Assembly: GCF_046105845.1 (NCBI RefSeq)
Contig: NZ_CP151004.1
Source of the DNA: Escherichia coli
GTDB lineage: Bacteria; Pseudomonadota; Gammaproteobacteria; Enterobacterales; Enterobacteriaceae
DNA: 64,000 nucleotides
Direction: 5' to 3' (one strand)
Positions 10,659 through 51,608 of this stretch are shown piece after piece. Each line of letters opens with the position of its first letter. Position 1 is the stretch's first letter. Below the pieces are notes generated by a model. The model was not told where the DNA came from, did no database searches, and saw nothing but the letters and a program-made list of their open reading frames with translations. Made by a program: the position numbers and the translations under genes.

Positions 10659-12248
10659 ATGAACAATAACGATCTGGTCGCGAAGCTGTGGAAGCTGTGC
10701 GACAACCTGCGCGATGGCGGCGTTTCCTATCAAAACTACGTCAATGAACTCGCCTCGCTGCTGTTTTTGAAAATGTGTAAAGAGACCGGACAGGAAGCGG
10801 AGTACCTGCCGGTAGGCTACCGCTGGGATGATCTGAAATCCCGTATCGGTCAGGAGCAGTTGCAGTTCTACCGTAACCTGCTGGTACATCTGGGCGCCGA
10901 CAATCAAAAGCTGGTGCAGGCGGTGTTCCAGAACGTCAACACCACCATTACCCAGCCGAAACAGTTGACCGAGCTGGTCAGCAATATGGATTCACTGGAC
11001 TGGTACAACGGTGCGCACGGTAAGTCGCGCGATGACTTCGGCGATATGTACGAAGGGCTGCTGCAGAAGAACGCCAACGAAACCAAGTCTGGCGCGGGCC
11101 AGTACTTCACCCCGCGTCCGCTGATTAAAACCATTATTCATCTGCTGAAACCGCAGCCGCGTGAAGTGGTGCAGGATCCGGCAGCAGGTACGGCGGGCTT
11201 TTTGATTGAAGCCGACCGCTACGTTAAGTCGCAAACCAATGATCTGGACGACCTTGATGGCGACACGCAGGATTTCCAGATCCACCGCGCCTTTATCGGC
11301 CTCGAACTGGTGCCCGGCACCCGTCGTCTGGCGCTGATGAACTGCCTGCTACACGATATTGAAGGCAACCTCGACCACGGCGGCGCAATCCGTCTGGGCA
11401 ACACCCTGGGTAGCGACGGTGAAAATCTGCCGAAGGCGCATATTGTCGCCACTAACCCGCCGTTTGGCAGCGCCGCAGGCACCAACATTACCCGCACCTT
11501 TGTCCACCCGACCAGCAACAAACAGTTGTGCTTTATGCAGCATATTATCGAAACGCTGCATCCCGGCGGTCGTGCGGCGGTAGTGGTGCCAGATAACGTG
11601 CTGTTTGAAGGCGGCAAAGGCACCGACATCCGTCGTGACCTGATGGATAAGTGTCATCTGCATACCATCCTGCGTCTGCCGACCGGTATTTTTTACGCTC
11701 AGGGCGTGAAAACTAACGTGCTGTTCTTTACCAAAGGGACGGTGGCGAACCCGCATCAGGATAAGAACTGCACCGATGATGTGTGGGTGTACGACCTGCG
11801 TACCAATATGCCGAGCTTCGGCAAGCGCACGCCGTTTACCGACGAGCATTTGCAGCCGTTTGAGCGCGTGTATGGCGAAGATCCCCACGGTTTAAGCCCG
11901 CGCACTGAAGGTGAATGGAGTTTTAACGCCGAAGAGACGGAAGTTGCCGACAGCGAAGAGAACAAAAACACCGATCAGCATCTGGCTACCAGCCGCTGGC
12001 GCAAGTTCAGCCGCGAGTGGATCCGCACCGCGAAATCCGATTCGCTGGATATCTCCTGGCTGAAAGATAAAGACAGTATTGATGCCGACAACCTGCCGGA
12101 GCCGGATGTATTAGCGGCAGAAGCGATGGGTGAACTGGTGCAGGCGCTGGGCGAACTGGATGCGCTGATGCGTGAACTGGGGGCGAGCGATGAGGCCGAT
12201 TTGCAGCGTCAGTTGCTGGAAGAAGCATTTGGTGGGGTGAAGGAATGA
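10659..12248 (+). CDS. hsdM: Type I restriction-modification N6-adenine DNA methyltransferase subunit HsdM (529 aa)
   Basis: MNNNDLVAKLWKLCDNLRDGGVSYQNYVNELASLLFLKM...; contains the NPPF catalytic motif (ATNPPFGSA) and an AdoMet-binding region. Confidence 0.95.
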   Translation: MNNNDLVAKLWKLCDNLRDGGVSYQNYVNELASLLFLKMCKETGQEAEYLPVGYRWDDLKSRIGQEQLQFYRNLLVHLGADNQKLVQAVFQNVNTTITQPKQLTELVSNMDSLDWYNGAHGKSRDDFGDMYEGLLQKNANETKSGAGQYFTPRPLIKTIIHLLKPQPREVVQDPAAGTAGFLIEADRYVKSQTNDLDDLDGDTQDFQIHRAFIGLELVPGTRRLALMNCLLHDIEGNLDHGGAIRLGNTLGSDGENLPKAHIVATNPPFGSAAGTNITRTFVHPTSNKQLCFMQHIIETLHPGGRAAVVVPDNVLFEGGKGTDIRRDLMDKCHLHTILRLPTGIFYAQGVKTNVLFFTKGTVANPHQDKNCTDDVWVYDLRTNMPSFGKRTPFTDEHLQPFERVYGEDPHGLSPRTEGEWSFNAEETEVADSEENKNTDQHLATSRWRKFSREWIRTAKSDSLDISWLKDKDSIDADNLPEPDVLAAEAMGELVQALGELDALMRELGASDEADLQRQLLEEAFGGVKE

Positions 12249-13615
12249 GTGCGGAGAAATTGCCGGAGGGGTGGGTTGAGTGTGAATTATCCGAACTCGG
12301 TAACATTGTTACAGGGAAAACTCCCAGTACCAAGGAGCCTTCCAATTTTGGAGGCAGCATTCCTTTCATTAAACCAGGCGATCTTGATCTCGGTGGCTAT
12401 ATCATGAATACCGCCGATACTCTGACGGAGAAAGGGTTATCTCTTGTCCCCACTCTTCCTGCCAATTCAGTCGTTGTGACGTGTATTGGAAATTTAGGAA
12501 AAGTTGGAATTACCGCTAAAAAATCAGCATCTAATCAACAAATAAATGCATTGATCCCGTCAGAAAAGCTAAATGTAAAATTTGTTTATTACCAAATTTT
12601 AACATTAAAACCATGGTTAGAGTCTCAATCAGCAGCTACTACAATTGCGATTGTGAACAAGAGCAAATTTTCTCAGGCACCATTTAAATTCCCGTCGCTT
12701 GCCGAACAAAAAATCATCACTGAAAAACTCGATACGCTGCTGGCGCAGGTAGACAGCACCAAAGCACGTCTTGAGCAAATCCCACAAATCCTGAATCGTT
12801 TTCGTCAGGCTATTCTAGCTAATGCTGTGGAAGGAAAATTGACCGACGAATGGCGAGCCGGAAAATGTTATATTACAGAAATCAAAAAAATATCTGATAT
12901 TATTCAGAATGCTCAAGTCGGATTAGTTCGTTCAGCTTCAGATCAAAGCGAAATATGCACTCAAAAAATGAGAACGCCTTATATAAAAATGAATAACATT
13001 CACAATGTTCTCGGAACAAATTTAGAAAAACTCGCTTATGTCAACTGTGATAGCTATGAACTGGAAAAATATAGATTAAAAAATGGAGATTGGCTCTTTA
13101 ATACACGAAATAGTTATGAGTTAGTTGGTAAATCCTGTGTCTGGAATGGATGTAGCAATGCTGTATATAATAATAATATATTAAGAGTTAGACTAAAAGA
13201 AAACTACAATTCTGTTTTTTTAGATTATTGGTTTCACTCGTTCTATGGAGTGAGCATGCTTAATAGTATTAAATCCGCAACAACAAATGTTGCTGCGATA
13301 TATCAGAAAGAACTCTTAAGTAAAAGTGTTCCATTCCCCCCCCTTCCCGAACAAGCCGAGATTGTTCGCCGCGTCGAACAACTCTTCGCCTACGCCGACA
13401 CCATAGAAAAACAGGTCAACAACGCCTTAGCCCGCGTTAACAACCTGACGCAATCCATCCTGGCAAAAGCGTTCCGTGGTGAACTCACCGCCCAGTGGCG
13501 GGCCGAAAACCCGGATTTAATCAGCGGAGAAAACAGCGCCGCCGCGTTGCTGGAAAAAATCAAAGCTGAACGCGCAGCCAGCGGGGGTAAAAAAGCCTCG
13601 CGTAAAAAATCCTGA
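12245..13615 (+). CDS. hsdS: Type I restriction-modification specificity subunit HsdS (456 aa) with divergent AT-rich target-recognition domains
   Basis: ATGA start/stop overlap with hsdM. The conserved central (LAEQKIITEKLDTLLAQVDSTKARLEQIPQIL) and C-terminal (LPEQAEIVRRVEQLFAYADTIEKQVNNALARVNNLTQSILAKAFRGELTAQWR) regions frame two variable segments of visibly lower GC content. Confidence 0.9.
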   Translation: MSAEKLPEGWVECELSELGNIVTGKTPSTKEPSNFGGSIPFIKPGDLDLGGYIMNTADTLTEKGLSLVPTLPANSVVVTCIGNLGKVGITAKKSASNQQINALIPSEKLNVKFVYYQILTLKPWLESQSAATTIAIVNKSKFSQAPFKFPSLAEQKIITEKLDTLLAQVDSTKARLEQIPQILNRFRQAILANAVEGKLTDEWRAGKCYITEIKKISDIIQNAQVGLVRSASDQSEICTQKMRTPYIKMNNIHNVLGTNLEKLAYVNCDSYELEKYRLKNGDWLFNTRNSYELVGKSCVWNGCSNAVYNNNILRVRLKENYNSVFLDYWFHSFYGVSMLNSIKSATTNVAAIYQKELLSKSVPFPPLPEQAEIVRRVEQLFAYADTIEKQVNNALARVNNLTQSILAKAFRGELTAQWRAENPDLISGENSAAALLEKIKAERAASGGKKASRKKS

Positions 13616-13771: not shown

Positions 13772-13848
13772 AGCGCGGTGCGGATGTGCGCCAACACACC
13801 CGCACCGCTCATCACAATCACTATTCCAGGAGAATAGCAGTTATGACT
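13772..13848 (-). ncRNA. symR: Probable SymR antisense sRNA overlapping the symE 5' UTR, RBS and start codon (coordinates approximate)
   Basis: Placed from established knowledge of the symE/SymR arrangement (a ~77-nt cis-antisense RNA covering the symE translation initiation region). The inverted repeat GCGGTGCGG...CCGCACCGC at 13776..13809 lies within it. Exact ends are not determinable from sequence alone. Confidence 0.35.
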
Positions 13849-14184
13849 GACACGCATTTTATTGCACAACCGTTCGAAGCAGAAGTCTCCCCGGCAAATA
13901 ACCGTCAATTAACCGTGAGTTATGCGAGCCGCTACCCGGATTACAGCCGTATTCCCGCCATCACCCTGAAAGGTCAGTGGCTGGAAGCCGCCGGTTTTGC
14001 CACCGGCACGGCGGTAGATGTCAAAGTGATGGAAGGCTGTATTGTCCTCACCGCCCAACCCCCCGCCGCTGAAGAGAGCGAACTGATGCAGTCGCTGCGC
14101 CAGGTGTGCAAACTGTCGGCGCGTAAACAAAAGCAGGTGCAGGCGTTTATTGGAGTGATTGCCGGTAAACAGAAAGTCGCGTAA
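13843..14184 (+). CDS. symE: SOS-induced toxin-like protein SymE (113 aa; AbrB/SpoVT-fold endoribonuclease-like)
   Basis: [52 protein letters not shown]..., with AGGAG RBS upstream of the ATG at 13843. The ORF track start at 13786 is an upstream in-frame extension. Confidence 0.85.
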
Positions 14185-14345
14185 CAGCGTTTACTCCCGG
14201 TTAACCACCGGGAGCCTTCCACTGACTCAATAGAAACTTTCCCCCTCAGTAAATATTTACCTGCCTGATTGTGCAGTAAAAATCTATTGTTTCAGTACGT
14301 TGCGAAAGCGATAATAGAGGCTTAGCAATGAGGAAGGCACATCTT

Positions 14346-15725
14346 ATGGAATCAATTCAAGCCTGGATTGAAAAATTTATTGAGCAAGCACAGCAACAAA
14401 GTTCGCAATCCACTAAAGATTATCCAACGTCTTACCGTAACCTGCGAGTAAAAGTGAGTTTCGGTTATGGCAATTTTACATCTATTCCCTGGTTTGCATT
14501 TCTTGGAGAAGGTCAGGAAGTTTCTAACGGTATATATCCCGTTATTCTCTATTATAAAGATTTTGATGAGTTGGTTTTGGCTTATGGTATAAGTGACACG
14601 AATAAACCACATGCACAATGGCACTTTTCTTCTGACATACCTAAAACAATCGCAGAGTATTTCCAGGCAACTTCAGGTGTATATCCTAAAAAATACGGAC
14701 AGTCCTATTACGCCTGTTCCCAAAAAGTCTCACAGGGTCTTGATTATACCCGGCTTGCCTCCATGCTGGACAACATAATCAACGACTATAAATTAATATT
14801 TAATTCTGGCAAGAGTGTTATTCCACCTATGTCAAAAACTGAATCATACTGTCTGGAAGATGCGTTAAATGATTTGTTTATCCCTGAAACCACAATAGAG
14901 ACGATACTCAAACGATTAACCATCAAAAAAAATATTATCCTCCAGGGGCCGCCCGGCGTTGGAAAAACCTTTGTTGCACGCCGTCTGGCTTACTTGCTGA
15001 CAGGAGAAAAGGCTCCGCAACGCGTCAATATGGTTCAGTTCCATCAATCTTATAGCTATGAGGATTTTATACAGGGCTATCGTCCGAATGGTGTCGGCTT
15101 CCGACGTAAAGACGGTATATTTTACAATTTTTGTCAGCAAGCTAAAGAGCAGCCAGAGAAAAAGTATGTTTTTATTATAGATGAAATTAATCGTGCCAAT
15201 CTCAGTAAAGTATTTGGCGAAGTGATGATGTTAATGGAACATGATAAACGAGGTGAAAACTGGTCTGTTCCCTTAACCTACTCCGAAAACGATGAAGAAC
15301 GATTCTATGTCCCGGAGAATGTTTATATTATCGGTTTAATGAATACTGCCGATCGCTCTCTGGCCGTTGTTGATTATGCCCTGCGCAGACGATTTTCTTT
15401 CATAGATATTGAGCCAGGTTTTGATACACCACAGTTCCGGAATTTTTTACTGAATAAAAAAGCAGAACCTTCATTTGTTGAGTCTTTATGCCAAAAAATG
15501 AACGAGTTAAACCAGGAAATCAGCAAAGAGGCCACTATCCTTGGGAAAGGATTCCGCATTGGGCATAGTTACTTCTGCTGTGGGTTGGAAGATGGCACCT
15601 CTCCGGATACGCAATGGCTTAATGAAATTGTGATGACGGATATCGCCCCTTTACTCGAAGAATATTTCTTTGATGACCCCTATAAACAACAGAAATGGAC
15701 CAACAAATTATTAGGGGACTCATAG
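14346..15725 (+). CDS. mcrB: 5-methylcytosine-specific restriction enzyme McrB (GTPase / AAA+ DNA-binding subunit), 459 aa
   Basis: MESIQAWIEKFIEQAQQQSSQSTKDYPTSYRNLRVK..., with GPPGVGKT Walker A and a DEIN Walker B-like motif. AT-rich composition. Confidence 0.93.
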   Translation: MESIQAWIEKFIEQAQQQSSQSTKDYPTSYRNLRVKVSFGYGNFTSIPWFAFLGEGQEVSNGIYPVILYYKDFDELVLAYGISDTNKPHAQWHFSSDIPKTIAEYFQATSGVYPKKYGQSYYACSQKVSQGLDYTRLASMLDNIINDYKLIFNSGKSVIPPMSKTESYCLEDALNDLFIPETTIETILKRLTIKKNIILQGPPGVGKTFVARRLAYLLTGEKAPQRVNMVQFHQSYSYEDFIQGYRPNGVGFRRKDGIFYNFCQQAKEQPEKKYVFIIDEINRANLSKVFGEVMMLMEHDKRGENWSVPLTYSENDEERFYVPENVYIIGLMNTADRSLAVVDYALRRRFSFIDIEPGFDTPQFRNFLLNKKAEPSFVESLCQKMNELNQEISKEATILGKGFRIGHSYFCCGLEDGTSPDTQWLNEIVMTDIAPLLEEYFFDDPYKQQKWTNKLLGDS

Positions 15726-16771
15726 TGGAACAGCCCGTGATACCTGTCCGTAATATCTATTACATGCTTACCTATGCATGGGGTTATTTACAGGACATTA
15801 AGCAGGCCGACCTTGAAGCCATACCCGGTAACAATCTTCTTGATATCCTGGGGTATGTATTAAATAAAGGGGTTTTACAGCTTTCACGCCGAGGGCTTGA
15901 GCTTGATTACAATCCTAATACCGAGATCATTCCTGGCATCAAAGGGCGAATAGAGTTTGCTAAAACAATACGCGGCTTCCATCTTAATCATGGGAAAACC
16001 GTCAGTACTTTTGATATGCTTAATGAAGACACGCTGGCTAACCGAATTATAAAAAGCACATTAGCCATATTAATTAAGCATGAAAAGTTAAATTCAACTA
16101 TCAGAGATGAAGCTCGTTCACTTTATAGAAAATTACCGGGCATTAGCACTCTTCATTTAACTCCGCAGCATTTCAGCTATCTGAACGGCGGAAAAAATAC
16201 GCGTTATTATAAATTCGTTATCAGTGTCTGCAAATTCATCGTCAATAATTCTATTCCAGGTCAAAACAAAGGACACTACCGTTTCTATGATTTTGAAAGA
16301 AACGAAAAAGAGATGTCATTACTTTATCAAAATTTTCTTTTTGAATTTTGCCGTCGTGAATTACCATCTGTAAATACAACTCGCCCACATTTAAAATGGG
16401 ATGCATCAAGCATATCGGATCAATCACTTAGCTTGTTACCTCGAATGGAAACTGACATCACCATTAACTCATCAGGGAAAATACTTATCGTTGATGCCAA
16501 ATACTATAAAAGCATTTTTTCACGACGAATGGGTACAGAAAAGTTTCATTCTCAAAATCTATATCAACTGATGAGTTACTTATGGTCGTTAAAGCCTGAA
16601 AATGGCGAAAAAACAGGGGGGTTATTAATATACCCACACGTAGACACCTCAGTGAAACATCGTTATAAAATTAATGGCTTCGATATTGGCTTGTGTACCG
16701 TCAATTTAGGTCAGGAATGGCCGTGTATACATCAAGAATTACTCGACATTTTCGGTGAATATCTCAAATAA
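15725..16771 (+). CDS. mcrC: 5-methylcytosine-specific restriction enzyme McrC (nuclease subunit), 348 aa, GTG start overlapping the mcrB stop by 1 nt
   Basis: Reading from the GTG at 15725 gives (M)EQPVIPVRNIYYMLTYAWGYLQDIKQ...; a PD-(D/E)XK-type region (ILIVDAKYYK) lies near the C-terminus. The ORF track start (15695) is an upstream in-frame extension. Confidence 0.9.
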   Translation: MEQPVIPVRNIYYMLTYAWGYLQDIKQADLEAIPGNNLLDILGYVLNKGVLQLSRRGLELDYNPNTEIIPGIKGRIEFAKTIRGFHLNHGKTVSTFDMLNEDTLANRIIKSTLAILIKHEKLNSTIRDEARSLYRKLPGISTLHLTPQHFSYLNGGKNTRYYKFVISVCKFIVNNSIPGQNKGHYRFYDFERNEKEMSLLYQNFLFEFCRRELPSVNTTRPHLKWDASSISDQSLSLLPRMETDITINSSGKILIVDAKYYKSIFSRRMGTEKFHSQNLYQLMSYLWSLKPENGEKTGGLLIYPHVDTSVKHRYKINGFDIGLCTVNLGQEWPCIHQELLDIFGEYLK

Positions 16772-16793
16772 GCGGTAAGTTTTATAGAAAATA

Positions 16794-16820
16794 CCGCTCC
16801 CGACACCACATCGGGAGCGG
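16794..16820. terminator. Stem-loop between the convergent mcrC and large helicase genes (likely bidirectional terminator)
   Basis: CCGCTCCCGA-CACCACA-TCGGGAGCGG hairpin located between the mcrC stop (16771) and the helicase stop (16828). Confidence 0.5.
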
Positions 16821-16827
16821 CTCATCA

Positions 16828-19800
16828 TCAGGAGGCGATCACCTCCACCAGCACATCCGTTGCCCAACTCTCTTCGCTGTTGGCGACATTCCCTTCCTTG
16901 CAGGCCTGAGCCATTTTGACTAACTGGAAAGAAACGTCATCGCGGAAATCAAAGTAATGCCATTGCGATGCAAAGTTGATGCGCCAGTAGCCCATCCCCT
17001 GATCGAAGCGGATCTTCAATACCTGACCATCATCAAAAGTCACCGTCAGTTTACGATGGTGAGGGATATCGCGCGGCGAGTCGAACACCGTCAGTTCTAC
17101 CGGCCTGCCCAGCGCAGCAGCAAACCACTGATCAGCGAAATCCTGAAAATCCGCTATGCTCATCCAGTCATGGAAAGGCCGGTTACCGGGGCGATCTTTA
17201 TCTTTAAATAGCGTATCCAGCGTCACTTCAGCGCCATCGGTCAGCTTTGTTTTTAGCGGTCTCAAAATTGATCCCAACAACGCCAGCGCAACCGGGTTTT
17301 GCAGATAGCGATCGGTATAGTGAACGCCGGTAATTCGCGTGTTATTCATCAGTGACTGCGCTTCTTCATGGTCGTTAAACAGCACGTCCCAGAAGCGTTG
17401 CCCAAACTGCGACAGTGGTCCATTCAACTGTTTGTGGATCTGAATGTCTTTGACCCGCTCGACAGCGTTGGCGGCTTTAGCCGGCAGAATAAATTCGTTC
17501 AGCTCTACCGTTTTATAGCCGAGACTACGTACCACCAGTTCGTCATTCAGGTGCCACTCCGGCCCCGGAATCGTTGCCTGCTGGCTACGAGAGGCCAGCG
17601 TCATCACGCGATCGGCAAAGGTGACCTGAGCAACGATCGGTAATTTCAAATCCTGTTCAACATGGCATAGCCGCACACCCAGCGCAGTAAATTGCGATAG
17701 TTCGTGCAACAGGTCCGGGTCATCCACTCCCGCAGGAATAACAAGATCGACCTCGACGTTGTCTTTTAGCCGATAGTTCTGAACCGCCGCGCGGAACTGA
17801 CGTGCGTATAAATCCCACTCATTGGGCGCGCCGGTCATCCACAGGGTGAGCTTTTCAGCGCCTTCGTTAATCGCCCGGCGAATCGTATCGCCAATGGCGC
17901 CAGGGCAGTAGCGGGCATCCGGCAGCGAGAATGTCTCTTCATCCGGTAAACCGATGTAATACGTGAAGTCATCGCCAAGCCAGGCCAGCGCCGCTTTGCG
18001 ATCCAGCAAATCGTGATCGTGGCGAGTCTGGGAATCAAGCAGGCATTCACTACATGCAGTCTCACAATGGCGGCAGCCTAACTGTTTCACCATTCCCTGC
18101 AATATAGCTTCAATGTGTACCGGTGCGCTGGAGGCAAAACCTGCACCACCGCTGATCACATCATAAAGCTGTACGGCTAATACCGATTGCCCATCCTCCA
18201 GTCTGACCGGACGTACAGAATAGCCGAGTTCTGCGGCGGAGATACCCAGAACGCCCGCCAGCGCCTGACGCAGAGCAACCGCCAGAGTCATGGCAACAAT
18301 CCGCCCCTCCTCTGTGTTATCTGGCAGATACTCGCCGTTTTGCGGTTTGCGCAGAACCATTTCAAAGACATCGGTGCGCGCCAGTGCGCCCAGGGTGACG
18401 TTCTTCATGAGTGCCGTCGAACCGGGGCAAATCAGACGATGATTCTGGCTATCGCGGTCCGCTTTACCCGGACGCGGTGGATAGTGAGCTTCCATGCTTT
18501 TCGGCGCATCATTTTCATTCAGCATCGACTCAGCACGGCCACAGCTCAGACACAATGCATAACCGTGTCCACCTTCCCCCAAACTTTGCTGGAAAACATG
18601 CCCATCAGCCCCAGAAGCCATATAACCCATTAGCGGGTTAGGCAACGGTACGGGCTCTGCTTTAACAAAGACCCACGCGGGGACAACCGGGACGAATTTC
18701 ATGGTTTCAATATTGTTCGTTACCGGAGCGTGTGCATCGGTGACAAACCCGGCAGGCTGCAGCACCTGACGGCGATTATCCATGATTATTTTTTCGCCGC
18801 AGGCGCTATTGGAGCAAAAGAGCATCCCGGAACTGCTCATCCCCTCTTCATAGCCAATGGTCCCGCATTTGTGACAGCGCCAGGCGCAATCCAGACGCTG
18901 GGCTTCATTGGTATCAGCATTAATGTTGTGCCAGTGCAGTGAGACACCGGCAGAGCGGAAGACACGGCCATCAAGAATGATCTCTGCTCCCGGTGCATAT
19001 TCACGAATGGCAACACCGAGGTTACGGGAAGGTAATCCTTTATAACGGGAGACGTTATCTTCACGGTCCTTTTTATCACGACTTTTTTGCGATTTTTCGC
19101 GGATATAATCTTCCATTGTGAAGTTATCAAACGTCACTACATCTGTCGGGAAACCGTATCCCGGCAAGAAGGTTCTGGCAGCTAGATCGCGCAGCAGATA
19201 CTCGCCACAGTGCCGTTTCTTCTCCAGCTCTATGCGCTTACGATAAGGCGTTTGCGGCTGCGACTCACGCTCCTGTGTCACGAGATCGCGATAAACGGAG
19301 AGCCACCGCTGCTGCAGGAAGGTGATCGCGTTGATTGTTTTATCCCGCAGATATTCGGCTCTTGCACCATGCAACGCCGTACCTTTCACCAGCCGTTCCA
19401 GCGCCGTGTCGATATCAAGAACAGGGCGTTCCAGCCAGACTTTGAAGCGTTCGCATTTTGACTGCCCGTCATCTTCACCGAAAAACCAGAGGCTATCGAG
19501 GCTGGTTTTCTCTTTATCGGTTTCGCCAATAACGTTACATAAAAAGTCGGACAGTAATAATGCATTGACGTGACGTTGCACCAGTCGGGCGGAGTTCATC
19601 GCGACCATGGGTGCCGGGATCATGGTTTCAAATGGCCAGAGCGGGTTGGCAAAAACCTGCTGGTCGTGTGGGTTACCTTTACATAGGGTGTAAGAGATCG
19701 CACGTGATTCTTTACTACGCCCGGCTCGCCCGGCGCGCTGTAAATAGTTGGCCGGATGTGGCGGTACGTTGTTCATTACCACCGCAGTAATGCCCCCGAT

Positions 19801-22800
19801 ATCAACCCCCATTTCCATGGTGGTGGAACAGTTGAGAACATTTAGTTGCCCATTCTTGAACATCTTTTCATAGCTTTGCAGACGTTCTGACGACTGCTGG
19901 GCAGAGTGCTCGGCAGTGCGATAGTAGAAACCGCCTTCCACGACACGATCGTTGATGTCTGTCCAGACGTTTTCCGACCGCAATTGTGCGATCAGCGGAT
20001 CATTGCTGACCCAGTCGCGTGCTTTTGCCAGACCCTCTGCGTAGTCTTCCTGTGAACGATCCAGCTTCCAGATTTCCGGCATGGTGACTTTCTGCGCGAC
20101 AAAAGTGTCATATTGCGCCTGGGTAAGATGCTCGAACGAAATATGGGTAGGCAGATAAGGGGTTAAGCCTTTAAAAGCCGTATCCAGGATTTTATTGGTT
20201 ACCGGGCAAATCCAGGCATCCGTGATTAATGAAAAAGTCATATGCTCTTTCGGTAAATAAAAACGGTTGCCATCGGGTTTCAGTACTGCAAGCGGTCCGG
20301 TAAGTTGGGCCCATGCTTCTTTCAGCCATGTATTGATAATATCAATAGTCGCCGTATTGACGGTTTTGAATCCAGCCCCCAGCATCAGTAACTTCGCTAA
20401 ACGATGGGATACGTTGCCATTACGAATTTGAGGCCAGCGTCTGTTCTGATTATCTTCAGGATCTTTTGATTCCGGGTTACGGACGAATTTTGATGAAAAA
20501 CGGCTACCGATCCAGTTTTTCAGCTCATCATCCAGCTGTGTGAAGTTGCTCTCACGAACGTAATGATCCAGCGTAACTTTGAGAAAATCGCGCCAGTCAT
20601 CCAGCGTTAATCCTTTTTCCTGCCAGTGCAGAGGGATCTTATGTATTTTCTCCAGCCCCAGGTAACCAACCTGAACCAGCCCTTGTGTTTCCAGGCTGTT
20701 AGTCCGTTTAGGGCGACGCATGAATTCCCGGAATAACAACATTTCCGAAAGCTTTAGAGGCCCGCCGTTTTCATTAAACACTTCAGGCTTAAGATAATGG
20801 TTATATTGCAGAACCGGGCCACGGATATCGGCTCTCTCTTTAAGCTCGTTAACCATTTCTGTCCAGGTTCGGGATACCAGAGTAATTGCAGCTTTTCCAC
20901 CGATTGCAGACTGGTAAGCCTGTTCAAGCTGCTCGGCCTGCGCTTCTGATAATTTCGCTTGATCCGGCAATCCCCAGCTTCGATATTCTTCTGCCTGCTC
21001 ACGGGCTTGCTTTACCCTGGTCGCTAATTTTTCCAGATCGGCATTAGCGTTCGGCGCCGTGGGCGTTTGCGTTCGTTGATGCCAGCTCAGAATTTCGACT
21101 ACGCTTCCGCGTAAGCGACTACGTTCTGCTTCTTGCTGCATACGCACCGCCATCCGGGCTGTCCCTTGTCGACTATCCGTAAAGGTAATGAGTCGACGTC
21201 CTCGCCCTGGCAACGAATCTGGTCCGACGCCCTCTTTGCCTTCATCACTGGCAAAGTCCTGACAATACTCAAGAACGGTAGGCACGATGTTAGTAACGTA
21301 AAATGGCCCACCTAATAATGCACGCCGAAAGGGTTGTTTTCCGCTCATGCCTCGGTAGCCACAGCCGCTGGCGCTACAAACCTGTTCAATATCATTAATA
21401 ATCAGCGGAATGCTGTCATTATTAATAACGCCAATACGGCGCGTCTGACGGTCGAGGCGTTGTAGGGTATAGCCTGTCTCGCTGGTCTCTCCTGCGGCAA
21501 TAATCAACGGAGGCTGGAAACTGTTCTCTTTTTCGACTTTTTCCTCTGTAGTGTCATGTTCAACAGGTACTTCATCCTGCAAGGAGAACTCATCGCCACC
21601 TTTATTTTCCCATTGGACAAGTTTGCCCTTTTTGTCCTGCGCCAGAAGATGAGGCTCATTACAATCATTACAGAACGCCACTTCGTATACAGGGCTTCCA
21701 CAGTCACAATTTTGTCGCTGGTTCACATACACATAGCCAAAGGGCCAGCCTTTTTCGAGCGGTGTACCGTGCTTTAATCTGCAATCTTTATCAACACAAG
21801 CCCATATTCCCTGGGTATTACGCTGGAAGATATGCGCCCTGACTTTAAGAAATGCGGGATCCTTTGCATTAGGTTGAGTCCCTGAACAGACATCGATCCA
21901 ACGCAGTACTTCCTGCTGGCTGTAATGCTGTTTTGTCAGCACGTTTAACCGCTCTGTTATCTCATCCAGCTTCATCGGATTGGGCTGTTTGACCAACATC
22001 TCACGTATGTAACGCGCTTCGGGGGAATGCGTAAGCGCATAAAAGCGATCAGGACTTATACCTTTAATTTTATTATCATTTTTATCTCTTAGATCCAGAT
22101 CGGGTATTTGCTCTATTTCGTCTAACGGAAGAGAAACGTTTTTGGATGGTTCCAGTTCAGGAATCACCCGACTTCCGTCCAGAACATCGATGCGCTCCTT
22201 CGGGATACCGGATAATTCAGAGAGAAATTTTTTCAGCTGCTTTTCGACGTCGCTGCCGGCAATGGTCGCAGAGGTCGCTACAAAGCGCACATCATCTGGC
22301 GTCACGCCAAACGCTGTCATCACACGACGCAGCTGGAGCGCCAGTTCAGCGGCCTGCGACCCGACATAGGTATGCGCTTCATCCAGTACAATCCAGCGTA
22401 GTGATTTTTGTGCTTTGGATTGCTGGATAATCGGGGCGTCGACCTGGCGAACCATCATATATTCCAGCATCGTGCCGTTGGTCACCAGAATCGGGGCAGG
22501 TTCTTCACGCATTTTTTCGCGCGAGAGCACCTCATTCGGCCTTTTTGCCTGTTCGCTTTTTACCGAAGCGTGTAGGTTTTCGGTGTTACCGTTGTAAAGG
22601 CAGTAGCGGATCCCGGTACCAAAACCACGCGTCCAGGCATCCAGACGCTCGCGCTGTGAATTAATCAGGGCGTTCAATGGATAGAGAAAAAGGGCTCGGA
22701 CACCGACCAACGGATTGTTGCCATTTTCATGCAGTTCCCGGTAAAGATCTTCCAGCACCGGTACCATAAAACATTCCGTTTTACCTGAACCCGTACCACT

Positions 22801-23172
22801 GGTTACCACCACTGAATGTTTCTTTTCCAGCAAAGCTTTCCAACTGGCTAACTGGTGTGTAAAAGGCTTCCAGTCAGCACCAAATCGGTACCGGCCATTA
22901 CTCTGATCATCCAGTGAATCAACCACTGCTTTGCTCAACAATGCGTTGCCTTCCGTCAGACTGCGCATCGTGTGGTTTGACTCCTTCCAGCCAAACATTT
23001 GCTGGAATACCGGAGAAGCAAGGAATGAGCCCGGTTTCCCACAATCAGCCCCCATTTGTTGCGCGAGATGTTCACGCAGCTGCGGGTTGGTTACGCCCAT
23101 GATACTGAGCGTTGCTTCAGTTGAACGAGACAACGATTGTTCAATAAGTGACGAAAAATAGCGTGTAGTCAT
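16828..23172 (-). CDS. druE: Giant (2114 aa) SF2 DEAH-box helicase with MrfA-type Zn-binding (DUF1998/MZB-like) Cys clusters; candidate Druantia type III DruE-like defense helicase
   Basis: Walker [10 protein letters not shown] (~22780..22800), DEAH box VLDEAHTY (~22367..22384), SAT motif, motif [10 protein letters not shown] (~19718..19741), Cys4 clusters CHKCG...CSNSACG and [11 protein letters not shown] (~18040..18880). Forms an operon with the 1112-aa gene upstream (12-bp gap). The DruE name is inference from size, architecture and locus, not a verified hit. Confidence 0.75.
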
Positions 23173-23184
23173 CCTTATTCCTTT

Positions 23185-26100
23185 TTATTTTTTAGCAACA
23201 TAACGCAACAGGCTGCACTGAAAGATGGTCTTAAACCAGCGGGAATCGAAGTCCCTGACTTGCCTCAGGAAAAATACGGCACCGGGTTTACGGTCAAATA
23301 CAGCTTCAAAAGAAGTATTTCCGCTTGCCACAGCTGCAGCGAAGACGGGTAACCAGGCCACGGAATAGCGGTGATTTGCGTCAGGATTAATACCAATCAC
23401 TGGCTTTTTTTGTGACATCATCCATTTATACAGACGCTTGCAGCCATATTCAGGCCAGCGAGCTTCACTGTGCTCACGTAAAAGCTCCTGATACCACCCG
23501 TGGACACAAGATTCAGGAATAGACGGAGGGAGATATCCGTTACTTAACCATTTCTCAATTTCATCGGCATATGTCGGGAACACGAGCCCCAGCCGTTGAA
23601 ACATATTAGTAACCAGTAATTTCTGGGTTTCCTCCGGTGCACCTTTTTGGCTCAGGAACAATTTGAAACGCTCAGATGCAGCTTTGATCTCAAAGATGGG
23701 GAAAAACTCCCATAGAATAGGGAACTCATTCTCAATACGACTCAGGTACTCTGCTGACATTTCAAATTTGAAGAGCGACATTGCCAATGCCTGCGGATGC
23801 TGCACCAGTGCACGCCATACTTCAAAGGTTGCCAGTGGTAAATACCCGAATTGATCGTACAGGCTACGCATAAATTGCCAGCCGGAATGGGCAGGATCGT
23901 TAGCCATCTGTCCGAGAACCAGTGTGATGGTATTAACTTCTGCCTGTGGATTAAAAAGCTGGGTCGCTTTCTGCAATGAGCGGATGTTGCTTTCTTCTAC
24001 CGGTAACGAAGATTCGCCACGAATGAAGCAGGGACGAAAAGCCATCTCTTCACCCGGTTTAGGGACAACCAACCACGGTCCATTTTTGTTAACGATTGAG
24101 CTCAACTCATATTCACCGACAGGCACTCCCTCGCTCATTCTAGATGCTAAGGGAATGGATTTCCTCTCGGGTTCACTTAACAGCATGATAACGGGGGAAG
24201 GAATCTGCCCAGCACGATGGTTCACTGACTGGCTGAGTAATAGTTCTTTTTCATAATCATAGCGCAGGCTGTATTTATAGCGACGAATTTGCCAGGCCAT
24301 GACCACACCTGCCCCCGTAATACGCATCTCAACAACCTGATCAATACCTGCCTCAAGTGAAATCAGGTTCTCAATATGTTCGCGAAGACTATAGAGATTC
24401 AATTCAACAGGACGATCGCTCAACGCCGTATAACACCATTCATGCCATGCCTGTAATCCACTAACGGAGCGCAAATACAACTGCAATGTATATTTTGTCG
24501 GCTCACCATTTCTGGAGAACAGAAACGCTCTGGAACCCAGCAGATCATGCAGCGTAATGTTTTTATCCAGAGGACGTCCGTTTACATCAAGAGCGAGACA
24601 GCCTTTAGCGGGAAAAGGTAACTCAATGTCGATGGGGTCAGCCGCCAAATTAGGCAGAACTTGTAATGTAATAAATGCCGGAGGTACCCCTTCCGCTTTA
24701 AGTTGTATCTCTGTTCGCCCCTCAGTACGCTTACGTGTAGCCTCCAATGTTTTATCTTTAAGTTTTGCTACACAAGGATGCTGTGTGGTGATTAAGATAG
24801 TGCCTTCATTTGCGTGCATTCCACCTTTTATCTCAATACTGAAATCAGCAGGCAAGATACCGATTTTGCGACGCAAGAGCGTTTCATTGTTACTATTACG
24901 GATAGAAAGATATTGAGCCCCCAGCATCTCTTGTATATGACATTGCTCAATTGAAATTCCGCTCAGGTAACGCGTTACATCAATGCTTTGAATATCCGGT
25001 AGTGTAGAAATGACTTTTGGTACACCAATAAATGTTTCATCTGGATGACAAACCCAGCTTGCACGCTTTCCATTTAGAGCAAACCTTCCGATGCTGATTT
25101 GTTCTCTTCCGGTGCGAATCCGATAAGTTTCATTTGCTGTAACTGTAACGTCCTGACATCCCTTCACAGGTAGTGCTTTTAGTCCTAATACGTTTACTGC
25201 GCTCGATTGGCCATCAAAACCAGCAACATTGCTATTATCCCGAGGGAGTACAATCAGAACATCGCTGCTTCGCACACTGCAAGAAGCCTGTCCCTGTAAC
25301 AGCCATTGATCTGCATCAACGATGAAGGTTAACGGCACCTCACCAATGGCAATTTCACTGTCATCAAGTTTAATGCTCCCAACAATCATCCCTCCAGCAC
25401 GAGCCACTAATGACAAACCTGCCGATGGATTTTGCCTGACAAATCTCACTTCGCTTTTACGTAATCGAACTGTTGCCTGTCTGTTTTCCAGGGAAGCATA
25501 GGCTGGCCCAAGGCCAGAGACTTCCTCACCATCTTCACAAATGGCAAGTTCAAAGCGCGTAGTTGACGGCTCGCTTGTTACAGGAAAGGAAACTTCGTCC
25601 GGAAGAGATACTATCACCCTAAGCTCATCTGGATGCTTTTCTGACCAATAGAATTGGCAACGCGTACTCTTATTTTTTTGTAGTCGAGGCTTAGCCTCTA
25701 CAGAGGCTGCGCATAGCAGTCCATTCAAAAAATGCGTTCCTGTTTCATCATCTAACGGTATTGGAAACTCGCTTCGCCAGGTAGGGTGAACCTTCTCAAG
25801 CTGTTGTACTGGTTCTTTGTGATTTATTAGGTTGTGAGTAAGTACTAAGGAATTGAGGTTATCAGCCATATGACTGATAAGTTCTACAGAGGTATCTTCG
25901 CTAAAAACAGTTGGCAGCGCTGATTTTTCTATGACAGCTCTTGCCAGCGAAAGGGCAGAAAAACCTGACTGCTTTGCTTGCTCATATTGTCCAAGGATCC
26001 TGGAGAAAACAGCCAGAAAGCGACTGTCTGATTCTTTGAGTAGCCGGAAAGGTAAACCACCTTCACTGAATAATGTTCCGAGAAAATTGCGTCGTTCAGA

Positions 26101-26523
26101 TTCATAAAATCGAATTGGGCGCAGCCAGTAATCTTCCATCCCTTTCGGTACGATAGTACCAAGCTCTGTGGCGGTGAATGAAATCCCTATTTTTTTATAT
26201 ATAGGGTCCCACGTCCATCCGCATTGCCGTTCATAATCCCTGCGGTACCACTCAGAGCAAAAAAGAACAAAACAGGCAGCAAAGTCCCTATTACATATAT
26301 TAGATTGTGATTGATCGACCGCACGGAGTAGCTGCGTTAATTGGGTATATTCATCATTGGTTGCATGATATTCATAAAGAGGACGGCCATCCGGTTGTCT
26401 CAACCCTCTAAGATTCACAAAGTTACTTAGCCAGGAAGTACATTTTACCCATGAAATGTATTCTGATTGACCCAAAGCAAGCTCCTTAGAGATAAAAGAT
26501 ACAAAAACAAAACCCCACAACAC
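23185..26523 (-). CDS. druH: Large (1096-1112 aa) protein of unknown function encoded immediately upstream of the giant helicase; candidate Druantia type III DruH-like partner
   Basis: Uninterrupted 1112-codon ORF with no recognisable catalytic motifs, co-directional and near-contiguous with the helicase gene. Start is uncertain: GTG at 26523, or TTG at 26475 preceded by a strong AAGGAG SD. An AT-rich promoter region lies upstream (26524..26970). Confidence 0.65.
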   Translation of the reverse strand: MLWGFVFVSFISKELALGQSEYISWVKCTSWLSNFVNLRGLRQPDGRPLYEYHATNDEYTQLTQLLRAVDQSQSNICNRDFAACFVLFCSEWYRRDYERQCGWTWDPIYKKIGISFTATELGTIVPKGMEDYWLRPIRFYESERRNFLGTLFSEGGLPFRLLKESDSRFLAVFSRILGQYEQAKQSGFSALSLARAVIEKSALPTVFSEDTSVELISHMADNLNSLVLTHNLINHKEPVQQLEKVHPTWRSEFPIPLDDETGTHFLNGLLCAASVEAKPRLQKNKSTRCQFYWSEKHPDELRVIVSLPDEVSFPVTSEPSTTRFELAICEDGEEVSGLGPAYASLENRQATVRLRKSEVRFVRQNPSAGLSLVARAGGMIVGSIKLDDSEIAIGEVPLTFIVDADQWLLQGQASCSVRSSDVLIVLPRDNSNVAGFDGQSSAVNVLGLKALPVKGCQDVTVTANETYRIRTGREQISIGRFALNGKRASWVCHPDETFIGVPKVISTLPDIQSIDVTRYLSGISIEQCHIQEMLGAQYLSIRNSNNETLLRRKIGILPADFSIEIKGGMHANEGTILITTQHPCVAKLKDKTLEATRKRTEGRTEIQLKAEGVPPAFITLQVLPNLAADPIDIELPFPAKGCLALDVNGRPLDKNITLHDLLGSRAFLFSRNGEPTKYTLQLYLRSVSGLQAWHEWCYTALSDRPVELNLYSLREHIENLISLEAGIDQVVEMRITGAGVVMAWQIRRYKYSLRYDYEKELLLSQSVNHRAGQIPSPVIMLLSEPERKSIPLASRMSEGVPVGEYELSSIVNKNGPWLVVPKPGEEMAFRPCFIRGESSLPVEESNIRSLQKATQLFNPQAEVNTITLVLGQMANDPAHSGWQFMRSLYDQFGYLPLATFEVWRALVQHPQALAMSLFKFEMSAEYLSRIENEFPILWEFFPIFEIKAASERFKLFLSQKGAPEETQKLLVTNMFQRLGLVFPTYADEIEKWLSNGYLPPSIPESCVHGWYQELLREHSEARWPEYGCKRLYKWMMSQKKPVIGINPDANHRYSVAWLPVFAAAVASGNTSFEAVFDRKPGAVFFLRQVRDFDSRWFKTIFQCSLLRYVAKK

Positions 26524-26973
26524 TTCTAATTTGAAAGAAAACTTTTCAAAATATCGTATAATTAATCAGGCGGCAACAACTAATTTTTCAGGTCGGTACT
26601 ATAAATTAATTTTAGATAAAAATGATATCAACCATCTATTAATCACAACTCATTTATCACCTGGTTTTATAATTTCAAATGAAAATAAATCTCAAACAAT
26701 CAAAAAGTATGCAGTAGCTAACATTTAACTTTCCAGGATATAAAACAATTAGAGAAACTGCACAATAGCGAATAATGAAAGTTGTAAAGTCAGTCAAAAA
26801 ACACAAGCAATCAGTGTGCGTTTTTTGACCGTTATCGACATGAGTTTAAAGAGTTTAGTGAAGAAGATATTCCTGTACACTCCATACCTATTGATGAATT
26901 GTCTCGGGAAAATTTTTATAACTTAATTTAAAAACATAAAAACGTTTTATTATATATAAATCTATACCCCCCC

Positions 26974-27138
26974 TCACTCCACATCCTCCCTGCGTAACCC
27001 AATATCCCTCAACCGCTCATCACTCATCTGCTGTAACACCCGCCGGGCCTGCATTTGCCGCCGCCAACGCCTCACTGCCTGCCAGAGTTGCACAAGTCCA
27101 ATAAACGGTGCTTTAGCTTTGTTTTCGTGAAATTCCAT
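26974..27138 (-). CDS. yjiS: DUF1127-family small protein YjiS (54 aa)
   Basis: Translated by hand: MEFHENKAKAPFIGLVQLWQAVRRWRRQMQARRVLQQMSDERLRDIGLRREDVE, with a GAGGAGG RBS upstream. Below the 60-aa cut-off of the ORF track. Confidence 0.75.
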   Translation of the reverse strand: MEFHENKAKAPFIGLVQLWQAVRRWRRQMQARRVLQQMSDERLRDIGLRREDVE

Positions 27139-27314
27139 CTGCTGCCTCCTCATCTTTCAGAGGCTTCATCATCCGTCTTCTGGCAGTTCACAATACAGAT
27201 GCAAATATTAGTTTTATTTAACATACAGACAGGTTAAAACAGCATCTGCATCCGGTTTTTTAGCCTCATCTGTACCGGTTTTTCTCTCTGTATGGTCCAA
27301 ATAAGGAACACAGC

Positions 27315-50777: not shown

Positions 50778-51608
50778 ATGTCTATGCCATTAAGCAATGC
50801 CCTTCAGAGTCAAATTATTACAGATAATCACTTCCTTCATCATCCAAAAGTCGACAGTGAGTTAACACGTAAATATGAACGTGCACGCCTGGATACGGAA
50901 AATATCTATCTTCTACCTCTTGCTCGTGGCAATAACCATAATTACGATGGAAAAAGCGTTGTCGAAATTAGAAAACTTGATATTAGTAAAGAGTCCTGGC
51001 CATTTAATTATGTGACAGAAACATGCAGAGAATCCGATGGTATTACAACAACAGGACGTATGCTCTATCGAAATTTGCGAATCACCACAGTTTTAGACGA
51101 AATATATGGTGGTATATGTAAAAAGGCGCATGCTGCCACAGAGTTAGCAGAAGGATTACGGCTAAATTTATTTATGAAGAGCCCTTCCTATCCTGTTGAG
51201 GACTATACAGTTCATGAAATAACATTAGGCCCTGGTTGCAATGTTCCTGGTTATGCCGGAACCACGATAGGATATATTTCAACCCTTCCAGCTTCTCAGG
51301 CAAAAAGATGGACCAATGAGCAGCCAAGGATTGATATCTATATTGATCAGATAATGACGGTAACAGGGGTAGCAAATTCTTCCGGATTCGCCCTTGCCGC
51401 ATTACTTAATGCTAATATTGAAATGGGAAATGACCCAATAATTGGTATAGAAGCCTATCCCGGTACCGCGGAGATCCATGCAAAAATGGGGTATAAAGTT
51501 ATCCCCGGTGATGAAGATGCAAAACTCAAACGTATGACTTTGCAACCGTCATCTCTTCCAGAACTGTTTGAATTAAAAAATGGTGAATGGAATTATATTG
51601 GTAAATGA
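50778..51608 (+). CDS. yjiC: Uncharacterised protein YjiC (276 aa), preceded by a long AT-rich leader
   Basis: MSMPLSNALQSQIITDNHFLHHPKVDSELTRKYERARLDTENIYLLPLARG...; AT-rich gene and upstream region (50110..50777). Confidence 0.8.
   Translation: MSMPLSNALQSQIITDNHFLHHPKVDSELTRKYERARLDTENIYLLPLARGNNHNYDGKSVVEIRKLDISKESWPFNYVTETCRESDGITTTGRMLYRNLRITTVLDEIYGGICKKAHAATELAEGLRLNLFMKSPSYPVEDYTVHEITLGPGCNVPGYAGTTIGYISTLPASQAKRWTNEQPRIDIYIDQIMTVTGVANSSGFALAALLNANIEMGNDPIIGIEAYPGTAEIHAKMGYKVIPGDEDAKLKRMTLQPSSLPELFELKNGEWNYIGK

What the first reader, a model, noticed from the sequence alone, without database searches (positions are those of the whole stretch)
14346..16771. mcrBC with a 1-nt stop/start overlap and distinctly AT-rich composition
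The mcrC GTG start shares a nucleotide with the mcrB TAG stop, implying translational coupling. Both genes are noticeably more AT-rich than the flanking hsd genes and the helicase operon, consistent with foreign origin. Both ORFs are intact here, so the strain is predicted to restrict 5mC and 5hmC DNA.
Basis: seen in the sequence. Interest (0 to 1): 0.25.

Follow-up and report, generated by a model that had tools for sequence, protein, structure and literature searches.

The report
Ordinary E. coli mcrBC restriction operon
This is the well-studied E. coli McrBC enzyme pair that cuts incoming DNA carrying methylated cytosines; its overlapping genes and unusually AT-rich make-up are real but were described decades ago.

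Summary
mcrB (14346-15725) ends in TAG at 15723-15725. mcrC (15725-16771) starts with GTG at 15725-15727, so one G is shared. GC is 39.9% for mcrB and 37.6% for mcrC, against 54-56% for hsdR and hsdM and 51% for the downstream helicase.

One correction: hsdS is just as AT-rich (41.2%), so "more AT-rich than the hsd genes" is true only for hsdR and hsdM.

The locus is the classical E. coli immigration-control-region mcrBC. It is 97.2% identical in DNA to K-12. Both proteins exceed NCBIfam equivalog cut-offs and align full-length to solved EcoKMcrBC structures. All catalytic motifs are kept, and the exact proteins are already deposited as E. coli McrB and McrC.

RefSeq annotates the same 1-nt overlap in K-12. 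I recall from memory that the low G+C and the foreign-origin inference were published in 1990; I could not retrieve that paper.

New details:
- The AT-rich block coincides with a 2,599-bp presence/absence segment (14185-16783) relative to an "empty-site" strain.
- 6 of 8 distant mcrBC pairs also have overlapping stop and start codons.
- This allele carries A59V in the 5mC-pocket wall. It is a common natural haplotype that, as far as I found, has not been tested.

Translational coupling and restriction activity are well-founded predictions, not demonstrations. Verdict: already known, low interest.

The parts
14185..16783 (+). mcrBC-specific AT-rich segment (2,599 bp): own upstream region, mcrB, mcrC and 12 nt after the stop. 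It is absent from an otherwise syntenic 'empty-site' E. coli.
   Evidence: In strain JNEC-KY178 (L023) the symE stop codon is directly followed by sequence that aligns to window 16784 onward. The 200-nt GC profile drops at about 14200 and recovers at about 16800.
14346..15725 (+). mcrB, 459 aa: N-terminal 5mC-reading domain (residues 1-161) plus an AAA+ GTPase domain
   Evidence: NCBIfam NF008457 equivalog, 1100 bits. Pfam MrcB_N and AAA_5. PDB 6ut6, 7vsr and 3ssc. 10 substitutions relative to K-12.
14829..15725 (+). In-frame internal start (Met162) for the short product McrB-S, which lacks the DNA-binding domain
   Evidence: Met162 and its context are conserved. Internal initiation yielding McrBS is documented for K-12 (PMC12707154). 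It was not tested here.
15713..15727 (+). mcrB/mcrC junction: SD-like AGGGGA, a 6-nt spacer, then TAG (15723-15725) overlapping GTG (15725-15727) at G15725
   Evidence: Direct reading. The junction is identical in 12 of 12 E. coli alleles apart from an AGGGGA/AGGTGA variant of the SD. K-12 RefSeq annotates the same 1-nt overlap.
15725..16771 (+). mcrC, 348 aa: PD-(D/E)xK nuclease subunit that also stimulates the McrB GTPase
   Evidence: NCBIfam NF007277 equivalog, 440.8 bits. Pfam PF10117. PDB 6hz4_M, full length. D244, D257, K259 and K157 are retained.
16793..16821 (-). G+C-rich hairpin between the convergent mcrC and druE genes. It is terminator-like with a T-run on the minus strand and lies just outside the mcrBC-specific segment.
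   Evidence: Terminator scan. The hairpin is also present in the empty-site strain.

Best explanation
This is the canonical chromosomal mcrBC operon of the E. coli immigration control region, a Type IV modification-dependent restriction system.

Mechanism, established for the K-12 enzyme and inferred here from 96-98% protein identity:
- The AAA+ domain forms GTP-bound hexamers.
- A McrC dimer bridges two hexamers. It stimulates GTP hydrolysis through Lys157, acting on the McrB NxxD motif.
- McrC cleaves DNA with its PD-(D/E)xK site (D244, D257, K259) once two distant sites have been brought together by translocation.

The mcrC GTG start overlaps the mcrB TAG stop by one base, and its Shine-Dalgarno sequence lies inside the 3' end of mcrB. 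Ribosomes finishing mcrB are therefore positioned to reinitiate on mcrC. That would tie McrC synthesis to McrB synthesis, and the weaker GTG codon would keep McrC sub-stoichiometric (the complex is 12 McrB : 2 McrC). This coupling step is inferred, not shown.

The operon is a discrete AT-rich 2.6-kb cassette, horizontally acquired into (or lost from) the slot between symE and the druE terminator.
For: Identity:
- Equivalog-level HMM hits for both proteins.
- Full-length PDB matches.
- 97.2% DNA identity to K-12, in the same hsdRMS-symE-mcrBC gene order.
- The exact proteins are already deposited as E. coli McrB and McrC.

Function-critical residues kept:
- McrB GTPase: GPPGVGKT at 201, DEINR at 279, NTAD at 333, RRRF at 347.
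- McrC: D244, D257, K259, K157.
- McrB-N: S38, Y41, N43, W49, Y64, L68, Y117 and S120 are present by direct reading against PMC3424535.

Mechanism literature: PMC3424535, PMC7680126, PMC6624300 and PMC12707154.

Selection: dN/dS against K-12 is 0.03-0.21, indicating purifying selection.

Coupling:
- The junction is invariant in 12 of 12 alleles.
- Eight distant annotated mcrBC pairs show 1-nt (2), 4-nt (3) and 11-nt (1) overlaps, or a 12-nt gap (2).
- The N-termini of distant McrC homologues align within a few residues of the GTG start, not the upstream ATG.

Cassette:
- GC and CAI are low.
- The GC boundaries equal the indel boundaries.
- Distribution is patchy: 596 of 5,426 genomes carry mcrBC and 60 show the empty site. 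McrBC occupies 6% of enterobacterial ICRs (PMC12707154).
Against: - No expression or restriction data exist for this strain.
- The A59V substitution lies in the wall of the 5mC pocket. Every solved structure has A59, so unchanged specificity is assumed, not shown.
- mcrC has its own well-spaced SD, so independent initiation could account for its translation.
- The RNA around the junction folds no better than shuffles (z = 0.11). The one SD-pairing stem it contains is broken in alleles with AGGTGA.
- Start codons in the distant homologues are pipeline predictions.
- Low GC could partly reflect amino-acid or functional constraints. hsdS is equally AT-rich without being a separate cassette.
- The direction of the indel (insertion or deletion) is not resolved.
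Confidence: 0.93

Rival explanations
1. The overlap is incidental compact gene packing. mcrC is translated mainly by independent initiation at its own Shine-Dalgarno sequence, with no functional coupling to mcrB translation.
For: - A good SD (AGGGGA or AGGTGA) sits 6 nt upstream of the GTG.
- No significant occluding RNA structure is found (z = 0.11).
- 2 of 8 distant homologues have a 12-nt gap instead of an overlap.
- Short overlaps are common in operons generally, for example hsdM/hsdS here.
- The complex is 12 McrB: 2 McrC (PMC6624300), so equimolar coupling is not required.
Against: - The stop/start geometry is invariant in 12 alleles although the SD itself varies.
- 6 of 8 distant pairs overlap, and all 8 lie within 12 nt.
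- From established knowledge, termination-reinitiation is efficient at such distances.
Confidence: 0.3
2. The operon is intact but has altered or weakened modification specificity relative to EcoKMcrBC. The cause would be the N-domain haplotype V37/V59/K87 (plus E13, S19), which touches the 5mC pocket wall and the DNA-contact loops.
For: - The A59 side chain forms part of the 5mC pocket wall, and residue 59 contacts the flipped base's phosphates. S38, next to position 37, is a phosphate clamp, and loop 83-102 supplies the pocket backbone (PMC3424535).
- 9 of the 10 McrB substitutions fall in residues 1-161.
- No solved structure carries V59.
Against: - The substitutions are conservative (A to V, L to V).
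- The haplotype is common: 7 of 12 alleles and 9 of 14 sampled cluster members.
- N-domain dN/dS is 0.19, showing no sign of positive selection.
- The discriminating residues Y64, L68, W49 and Y117 are unchanged.
- The divergence pattern looks like a recombination mosaic, not adaptive change.
Confidence: 0.12
3. The AT-richness reflects functional or selective constraints on these genes (for example H-NS-type silencing or protein composition), not foreign origin.
For: - GC1 and GC2 are also lowered (mcrC 0.447 and 0.332), so amino-acid composition contributes.
- hsdS, part of a resident operon whose other genes are GC-normal, is just as AT-rich.
Against: - GC3 drops the most (0.35-0.38 against 0.65-0.68 for hsdR and hsdM).
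- The compositional step coincides to within about 20 bp with the presence/absence breakpoints.
- Distribution within the species is patchy.
- Published analyses find frequent horizontal transfer of mcrBC (PMC2614495).
Confidence: 0.1

Closest known systems
EcoKMcrBC (E. coli K-12 mcrB b4346 / mcrC b4345; PDB 6ut6, 6hz4, 7vsr, 3ssc)
   Same: - Same locus and gene order (hsdRMS-symE-mcrB-mcrC).
- Same lengths (459 and 348 aa).
- Same 1-nt TAG/GTG overlap, with an identical 60-nt junction.
- Same catalytic and DNA-reading motifs.
- 97.2% DNA identity.
   Different: - 10 substitutions in McrB, 9 of them in the DNA-binding domain and including pocket-wall A59V.
- 16 substitutions in McrC, 13 of them clustered in residues 203-309.
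- Divergence is mosaic.
- The neighbouring druH and druE genes are intact here but are pseudogenes (yjiT, yjiV) in K-12.
E. coli strain 2012C-4221 and 7 other complete genomes with at least 99% identical mcrBC
   Same: Same allele family (99.0-99.2% DNA identity) and the same context, including an intact 2114-aa helicase.
   Different: - No complete RefSeq E. coli genome is 100% identical over the 2.4 kb.
- The exact protein pair is nevertheless deposited from other E. coli assemblies (EHK3780853.1 and EHK3780854.1).
Distant McrBC-family pairs (for example Proteus mirabilis pR997, Paracoccus, Rhodococcus, Clostridium butyricum and Agrobacterium plasmids)
   Same: Same two-gene order, with an AAA+ NTPase followed by McrC. 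The stop and start are overlapping or nearly abutting.
   Different: - McrC identity is only 23-33%.
- The McrB partners are much larger (about 730-830 aa) and presumably have different N-terminal reader domains.
- They are plasmid-borne.

Membership tests
McrB (EcoKMcrB equivalog; Type IV restriction GTPase subunit) | Full-length match to the curated equivalog model above its cut-off | tested here: met
   NF008457 scores 1100 bits against a cut-off of 637, covering residues 1-459 of 459.
McrB (EcoKMcrB equivalog; Type IV restriction GTPase subunit) | AAA+ GTPase motifs: Walker A GxxGxGK[T/S], Walker B D[D/E]xx, the McrB signature NxxD, and arginine finger / sensor II arginines | tested here: met
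   GPPGVGKT at 201, DEINR at 279, NTAD at 333 and RRRF at 347. Motif definitions are from PMC7680126.
McrB (EcoKMcrB equivalog; Type IV restriction GTPase subunit) | N-terminal DUF3578/MrcB_N 5mC-flipping domain with pocket residues W49, Y64, L68, Y117 and the intercalating Y41 | tested here: met
   Pfam PF12102 hit. Match to 3ssc over residues 1-162. All named residues are present (one search read). The exception is pocket-wall residue A59, which is V here.
McrB (EcoKMcrB equivalog; Type IV restriction GTPase subunit) | GTP-dependent binding of R-mC DNA and hexamer formation | not testable with these tools
   Requires biochemistry.
McrC (PD-(D/E)xK nuclease partner of McrB) | Full-length match to the curated equivalog model and to Pfam McrBC | tested here: met
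   NF007277 scores 440.8 bits against a cut-off of 338. PF10117 E-value 3.5e-27. PDB 6hz4_M covers residues 1-348.
McrC (PD-(D/E)xK nuclease partner of McrB) | Catalytic D244, D257 and K259, plus the GTPase-stimulating K157 | tested here: met
   TDIT at 243, DAKYY at 257, and K157 within SYLNGGKNT. Residue roles are from PMC12707154 reference 198 and from PMC7680126.
McrC (PD-(D/E)xK nuclease partner of McrB) | Encoded immediately downstream of mcrB in one operon | tested here: met
   1-nt overlap on the same strand.
Translationally coupled gene pair | Downstream start within a few nt of the upstream stop, with the SD inside the upstream ORF | tested here: met
   TAG/GTG share G15725, and AGGGGA lies 6 nt upstream.
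Translationally coupled gene pair | Downstream translation depends on upstream translation | not testable with these tools
   Needs nonsense or stop-relocation reporter experiments. The RNA fold gives no evidence of start-site occlusion.
Horizontally acquired cassette in the immigration control region | Atypical composition, presence/absence polymorphism with fixed flanks, and patchy distribution | tested here: met
   Composition. Empty site in L023. 596 and 60 of 5,426 genomes respectively.
Horizontally acquired cassette in the immigration control region | Recognisable mobility signature (target-site duplication, terminal inverted repeats, or an integrase) | tested here: not met
   No flanking repeats were found. 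The similarity between the left and right hairpins is not significant (114 of 2000 shuffles reach it).

The most novel reading that the evidence does not exclude
The linked McrB-N haplotype carried here (V37/V59/K87, with E13 and S19) may be a natural specificity or affinity variant of EcoKMcrB. Val59 would narrow the base-flipping pocket and shift the balance among 5mC, 5hmC and N4mC targets. Under this reading, E. coli populations would maintain two functionally distinct McrBC reader alleles that are shuffled by recombination.
Probability: 0.1. Interest if true: 0.35.

Novelty: already known. Interest (0 to 1): 0.08.

Why it matters
It matters little as a discovery. mcrBC is one of the best-characterised restriction systems, and its gene overlap, low G+C and inferred foreign origin are long established.

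Practically, it predicts that this strain will be a poor recipient for DNA carrying R-mC methylation. Such DNA includes many cloned methyltransferase products, plant and animal DNA, and non-glucosylated 5hmC phage.

Two by-products have modest value. First, the AT-rich block is delimited to the base as a 2.6-kb presence/absence cassette between symE and the druE terminator. Second, the common natural McrB allele differs from the structurally studied K-12 protein at a 5mC-pocket residue (A59V), which would be cheap to test.

Tried and rejected
- **SD-sequestering RNA structure at the junction.** The 101-nt fold is no more stable than shuffles (z = 0.11). Its one CCCCUA/UAGGGG stem is not maintained in alleles with AGGTGA. 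Rejected as evidence for coupling.
- **Positive selection in the DNA-binding domain or McrC.** Nei-Gojobori dN/dS against K-12 is 0.03-0.21 everywhere. Divergence is patchy in dS as well (mcrB-N 0.128 and mcrC 200-310 0.306, against 0.02-0.04 elsewhere). This points to a recombination mosaic, not an arms-race signal.
- **Mobility signatures flanking the cassette.** No direct or inverted repeats lie at 14185 or 16783. The symE-proximal hairpin (14194-14214) resembles the druE terminator hairpin, but not significantly (114 of 2000 shuffles).
- **Promoter scan.** No consensus-grade sigma-70 site lies upstream of mcrB on the + strand, and total hits equal the chance expectation. A TTGTTT-17-GATAAT candidate seen by eye at about 14288-14316 is unverified.
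- **Alternative upstream ATG for mcrC (15695, 358 aa).** Disfavoured. It has no SD. The N-termini of distant homologues align to the GTG form. All sampled gene calls and the structures use 348 aa.
- **Primary papers.** Attempts to read Dila 1990, Sibley & Raleigh 2004 and Panne 1998 failed because they are not held. Statements attributed to them rest on my memory.
- **PADLOC.** It has no dedicated McrC model hit and matched McrB only through generic REase/AAA models. This was uninformative for membership.
Full report
**1. Observation**

The window reads ...GGGGAC TCA TAG TGG AAC AGC CCG... at 15714-15736.
- In the mcrB frame, TAG occupies 15723-15725.
- GTG at 15725-15727 opens a 348-codon frame ending at TAA 16769-16771.
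- mcrB from ATG 14346 gives 459 aa.
- The two genes therefore share exactly one nucleotide, G15725.
- An SD-like AGGGGA (15713-15718) sits 6 nt upstream of the GTG.

The mechanical ORF list also extends both frames to upstream in-frame ATGs, at 14328 and 15695. They are also the ones used in the solved structures (459-aa and 348-aa chains).

**2. Composition**

| Gene | GC | GC3 | CAI |
|---|---|---|---|
| mcrB | 0.399 | 0.380 | 0.254 |
| mcrC | 0.376 | 0.350 | 0.191 |
| hsdR | 0.543 | 0.653 | 0.396 |
| hsdM | 0.559 | 0.683 | 0.476 |
| hsdS | 0.412 | 0.376 | 0.220 |
| 2114-aa helicase | 0.510 | 0.531 | 0.294 |

The whole window is 0.492 GC. A memory-independent measure, the likelihood of synonymous choices under the window's GC-normal genes, ranks the genes the same way.

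hsdS is as AT-rich as mcrBC. Its low-GC stretches are about 12400-13300, and its 3' end is GC-normal. symE, between hsdS and mcrB, has GC 0.55.

**3. What it is**

- Pfam finds MrcB_N plus AAA_5 in the first protein and the McrBC family in the second.
- NCBIfam equivalog models for McrB (1100 bits, cut-off 637) and McrC (440.8 bits, cut-off 338) are exceeded over the full length.
- The PDB search returns the E. coli McrBC cryo-EM and crystal entries end to end.
- The 2.4-kb operon is 97.2% identical to K-12. It is 99.0-99.2% identical to eight other complete E. coli genomes.
- 596 of 5,426 complete genomes carry it, all on the chromosome, and many are K-12 laboratory derivatives.
- The surrounding order is mrr, hsdR, hsdM, hsdS, symE (with the SymR antisense RNA, Rfam 93.5 bits, at 13772-13848 on the minus strand), mcrB, mcrC. 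This is the classical immigration control region (PMC12707154).
- The exact McrB and McrC sequences are already in NCBI from E. coli assemblies under adjacent accessions (EHK3780853.1 and EHK3780854.1).

**4. Integrity and residues**

Relative to K-12, McrB has 10 substitutions: P6A, K13E, R19S, L37V, A59V, E87K, Q93H, I132L, F137L and I275V. McrC has 16, of which 13 lie in residues 203-309.

Retained features:
- GTPase motifs: GPPGVGKT at 201, DEINR at 279, NTAD at 333, RRRF at 347.
- The McrC PD-(D/E)xK triad (D244, D257, K259) and the GTPase-stimulating K157 (roles from PMC7680126, and PMC12707154).
- Met162, the internal start for McrB-S.
- In the reader domain, the residues described for 5mC recognition: S38, G40, Y41, N43, T45, S46, W49, E58, S60, Y64, L68, I82, D84, T85, Y117 and S120.

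The exception is A59, which is Val here. The A59 side chain contributes to the pocket wall, and residue 59 contacts the phosphates flanking the flipped base (PMC3424535).

V59 is not a private mutation. It is perfectly linked with V37 and K87 in my samples. It occurs in 7 of 12 aligned alleles and 9 of 14 sampled cluster members. All solved structures are the A59 type; the deposited mutants are at L68.

**5. Selection and mosaicism**

| Segment | dN/dS vs K-12 | dS |
|---|---|---|
| mcrB-N | 0.19 | 0.128 |
| mcrB-C | 0.03 | 0.044 |
| mcrC (whole) | 0.21 | 0.102 |
| mcrC 200-310 | 0.18 | 0.306 |
| mcrC 1-199 | 0.18 | 0.024 |

(All values.)

The uneven dS, together with the allele table, shows alleles recombining as blocks. 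There is no evidence for positive selection.

**6. Translational coupling**

Evidence for:
- The stop/start geometry is identical in all 12 alleles, even though the SD varies between AGGGGA and AGGTGA.
- Among eight distant plasmid-borne mcrBC pairs (23-33% McrC identity), annotated stop/start relations are:
  - a 1-nt overlap in Proteus pR997 and Paracoccus;
  - a 4-nt overlap in Agrobacterium, Rhodococcus and Clostridium;
  - an 11-nt overlap in Butyrivibrio;
  - a 12-nt gap in Roseomonas and Nitrobacter.
- Those homologues' N-termini align within a few residues of the GTG-defined N-terminus, which argues against the upstream ATG.

Evidence against or neutral:
- The starts in the distant homologues are pipeline predictions.
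- mcrC has its own SD.
- The junction RNA is not unusually structured.

Coupling is therefore a reasonable inference (I put it at about 0.65), not a demonstrated fact. Given the 12:2 McrB:McrC complex (PMC6624300) and the known sensitivity of activity to McrC titration by McrB-S (PMC12707154), a coupled but weak GTG start is a sensible way to keep McrC limiting. This last step is my own inference.

**7. Foreign origin, sharpened**

E. coli JNEC-KY178 has the same flanks (hsdRMS-symE and the 2114-aa helicase with yjiT) but no mcrBC. Its symE stop codon is followed directly by sequence aligning to window 16784 onward.

The mcrBC-specific segment is therefore 14185-16783 (2,599 bp). It comprises a 161-bp upstream region, the two genes, and 12 bp. 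The 200-nt GC profile steps down at about 14200 and up at about 16800, so the compositional island and the indel coincide.

Sixty complete genomes have this empty configuration. Other states also occur:
- an IS1 truncation of mcrC in strain GN25;
- a frameshifted mcrB in MS 196-1;
- an IS1 insertion in mcrB in JNEC-KY203.

No target-site duplication or terminal repeats were found, so neither the mechanism nor the direction of the event is resolved.

Published work already reports frequent horizontal transfer and decay of mcrBC (PMC2614495) and cassette replacement in the ICR, including by GmrSD (PMC12707154).

**8. Comparison with what is known, and novelty**

[quoted passage not shown] It is also annotated in RefSeq.
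- From my own knowledge, Dila et al. 1990 (J Bacteriol 172:4888) reported that the G+C content of mcrBC is very low for E. coli and suggested recent acquisition. I could not retrieve that paper.
- The specificity for 5mC, 5hmC and N4mC in an R-mC context, and the exclusion of glucosylated hmC, are established for K-12 (PMC12707154; PMC3424535).

The finding is a correct re-reading of textbook features in a non-K-12 allele. Novelty: already known. Interest: low (0.08).

The only untested wrinkle is the A59V-bearing reader haplotype. I rate it at about 10% to have a measurable effect on specificity.

Noticed in passing
window 16828-23172 (-) and 23185-26523 (-): The 'helicase operon' next to mcrC is an intact Druantia type III defence system. 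The 2114-aa protein matches PADLOC DruE3 (2697 bits) and the 1112-aa protein matches DruH3 (1829 bits). In K-12 the same genes are broken pseudogenes (yjiV and yjiT). This strain therefore carries Mrr, a Type I system, SymE/SymR, McrBC and Druantia III side by side.
   Followed up: partly
window 14185-16783; L023 8998-9003: The mcrBC cassette is an exact 2,599-bp presence/absence polymorphism between the symE stop codon and the druE terminator hairpin. 60 of 5,426 complete E. coli genomes show the empty site. No flanking repeats or mobility genes explain the event.
   Followed up: yes
window 14520-14522 (McrB codon 59); also codons 37 and 87: The common natural McrB-N haplotype V37/V59/K87 differs from the structurally characterised K-12 protein (L37/A59/E87) at a 5mC-pocket wall residue and in DNA-contact loops. 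The three positions were perfectly linked in 26 sampled sequences. I found no functional data.
   Followed up: partly
window 12245-13615: hsdS (456 aa, against 464 aa in K-12) is as AT-rich as mcrBC (GC 0.412) and overlaps hsdM by 4 nt (ATGA). The low-GC parts are the two internal blocks at about 12400-13300, presumably the target-recognition domains. This implies an EcoKI-family enzyme with a different specificity.
   Followed up: no
window 13772-13848 (-) and 13843-14184 (+): The SymR antisense RNA (Rfam RF01809, 93.5 bits) overlaps the 5' end of symE (Pfam SymE_toxin). This is a type I toxin-antitoxin pair sitting between hsdS and the mcrBC cassette.
   Followed up: partly
window 14194-14214 and 16797-16821: Two hairpins with the same CTCCCG/CGGGAG stem and ACCAC-containing 9-nt loops bracket the mcrBC cassette. 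The empty-site strain has only the right-hand one. The similarity is not statistically significant (p about 0.06 by shuffling), so a duplication origin is unproven.
   Followed up: yes
window 35579-37669, 50778-51608, 1508-2134 and about 26500-27300: Other AT-rich islands occur in the window. A 696-aa pentapeptide-repeat protein has GC 0.352, a DUF2686 protein has GC 0.396, a 208-aa ORF with no Pfam hit has GC 0.368, and an intergenic stretch has GC 0.36. A 1746-aa inverse autotransporter (intimin/invasin-like) lies at 40223-45463.
   Followed up: no
L013 (E. coli MS 196-1), L014 (GN25), H63 (JNEC-KY203): Natural decay states of the operon occur in other strains: a frameshifted mcrB, mcrC truncated by IS1 after 22 codons, and mcrB interrupted by IS1. 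These fit the reported frequent loss of mcrBC.
   Followed up: partly
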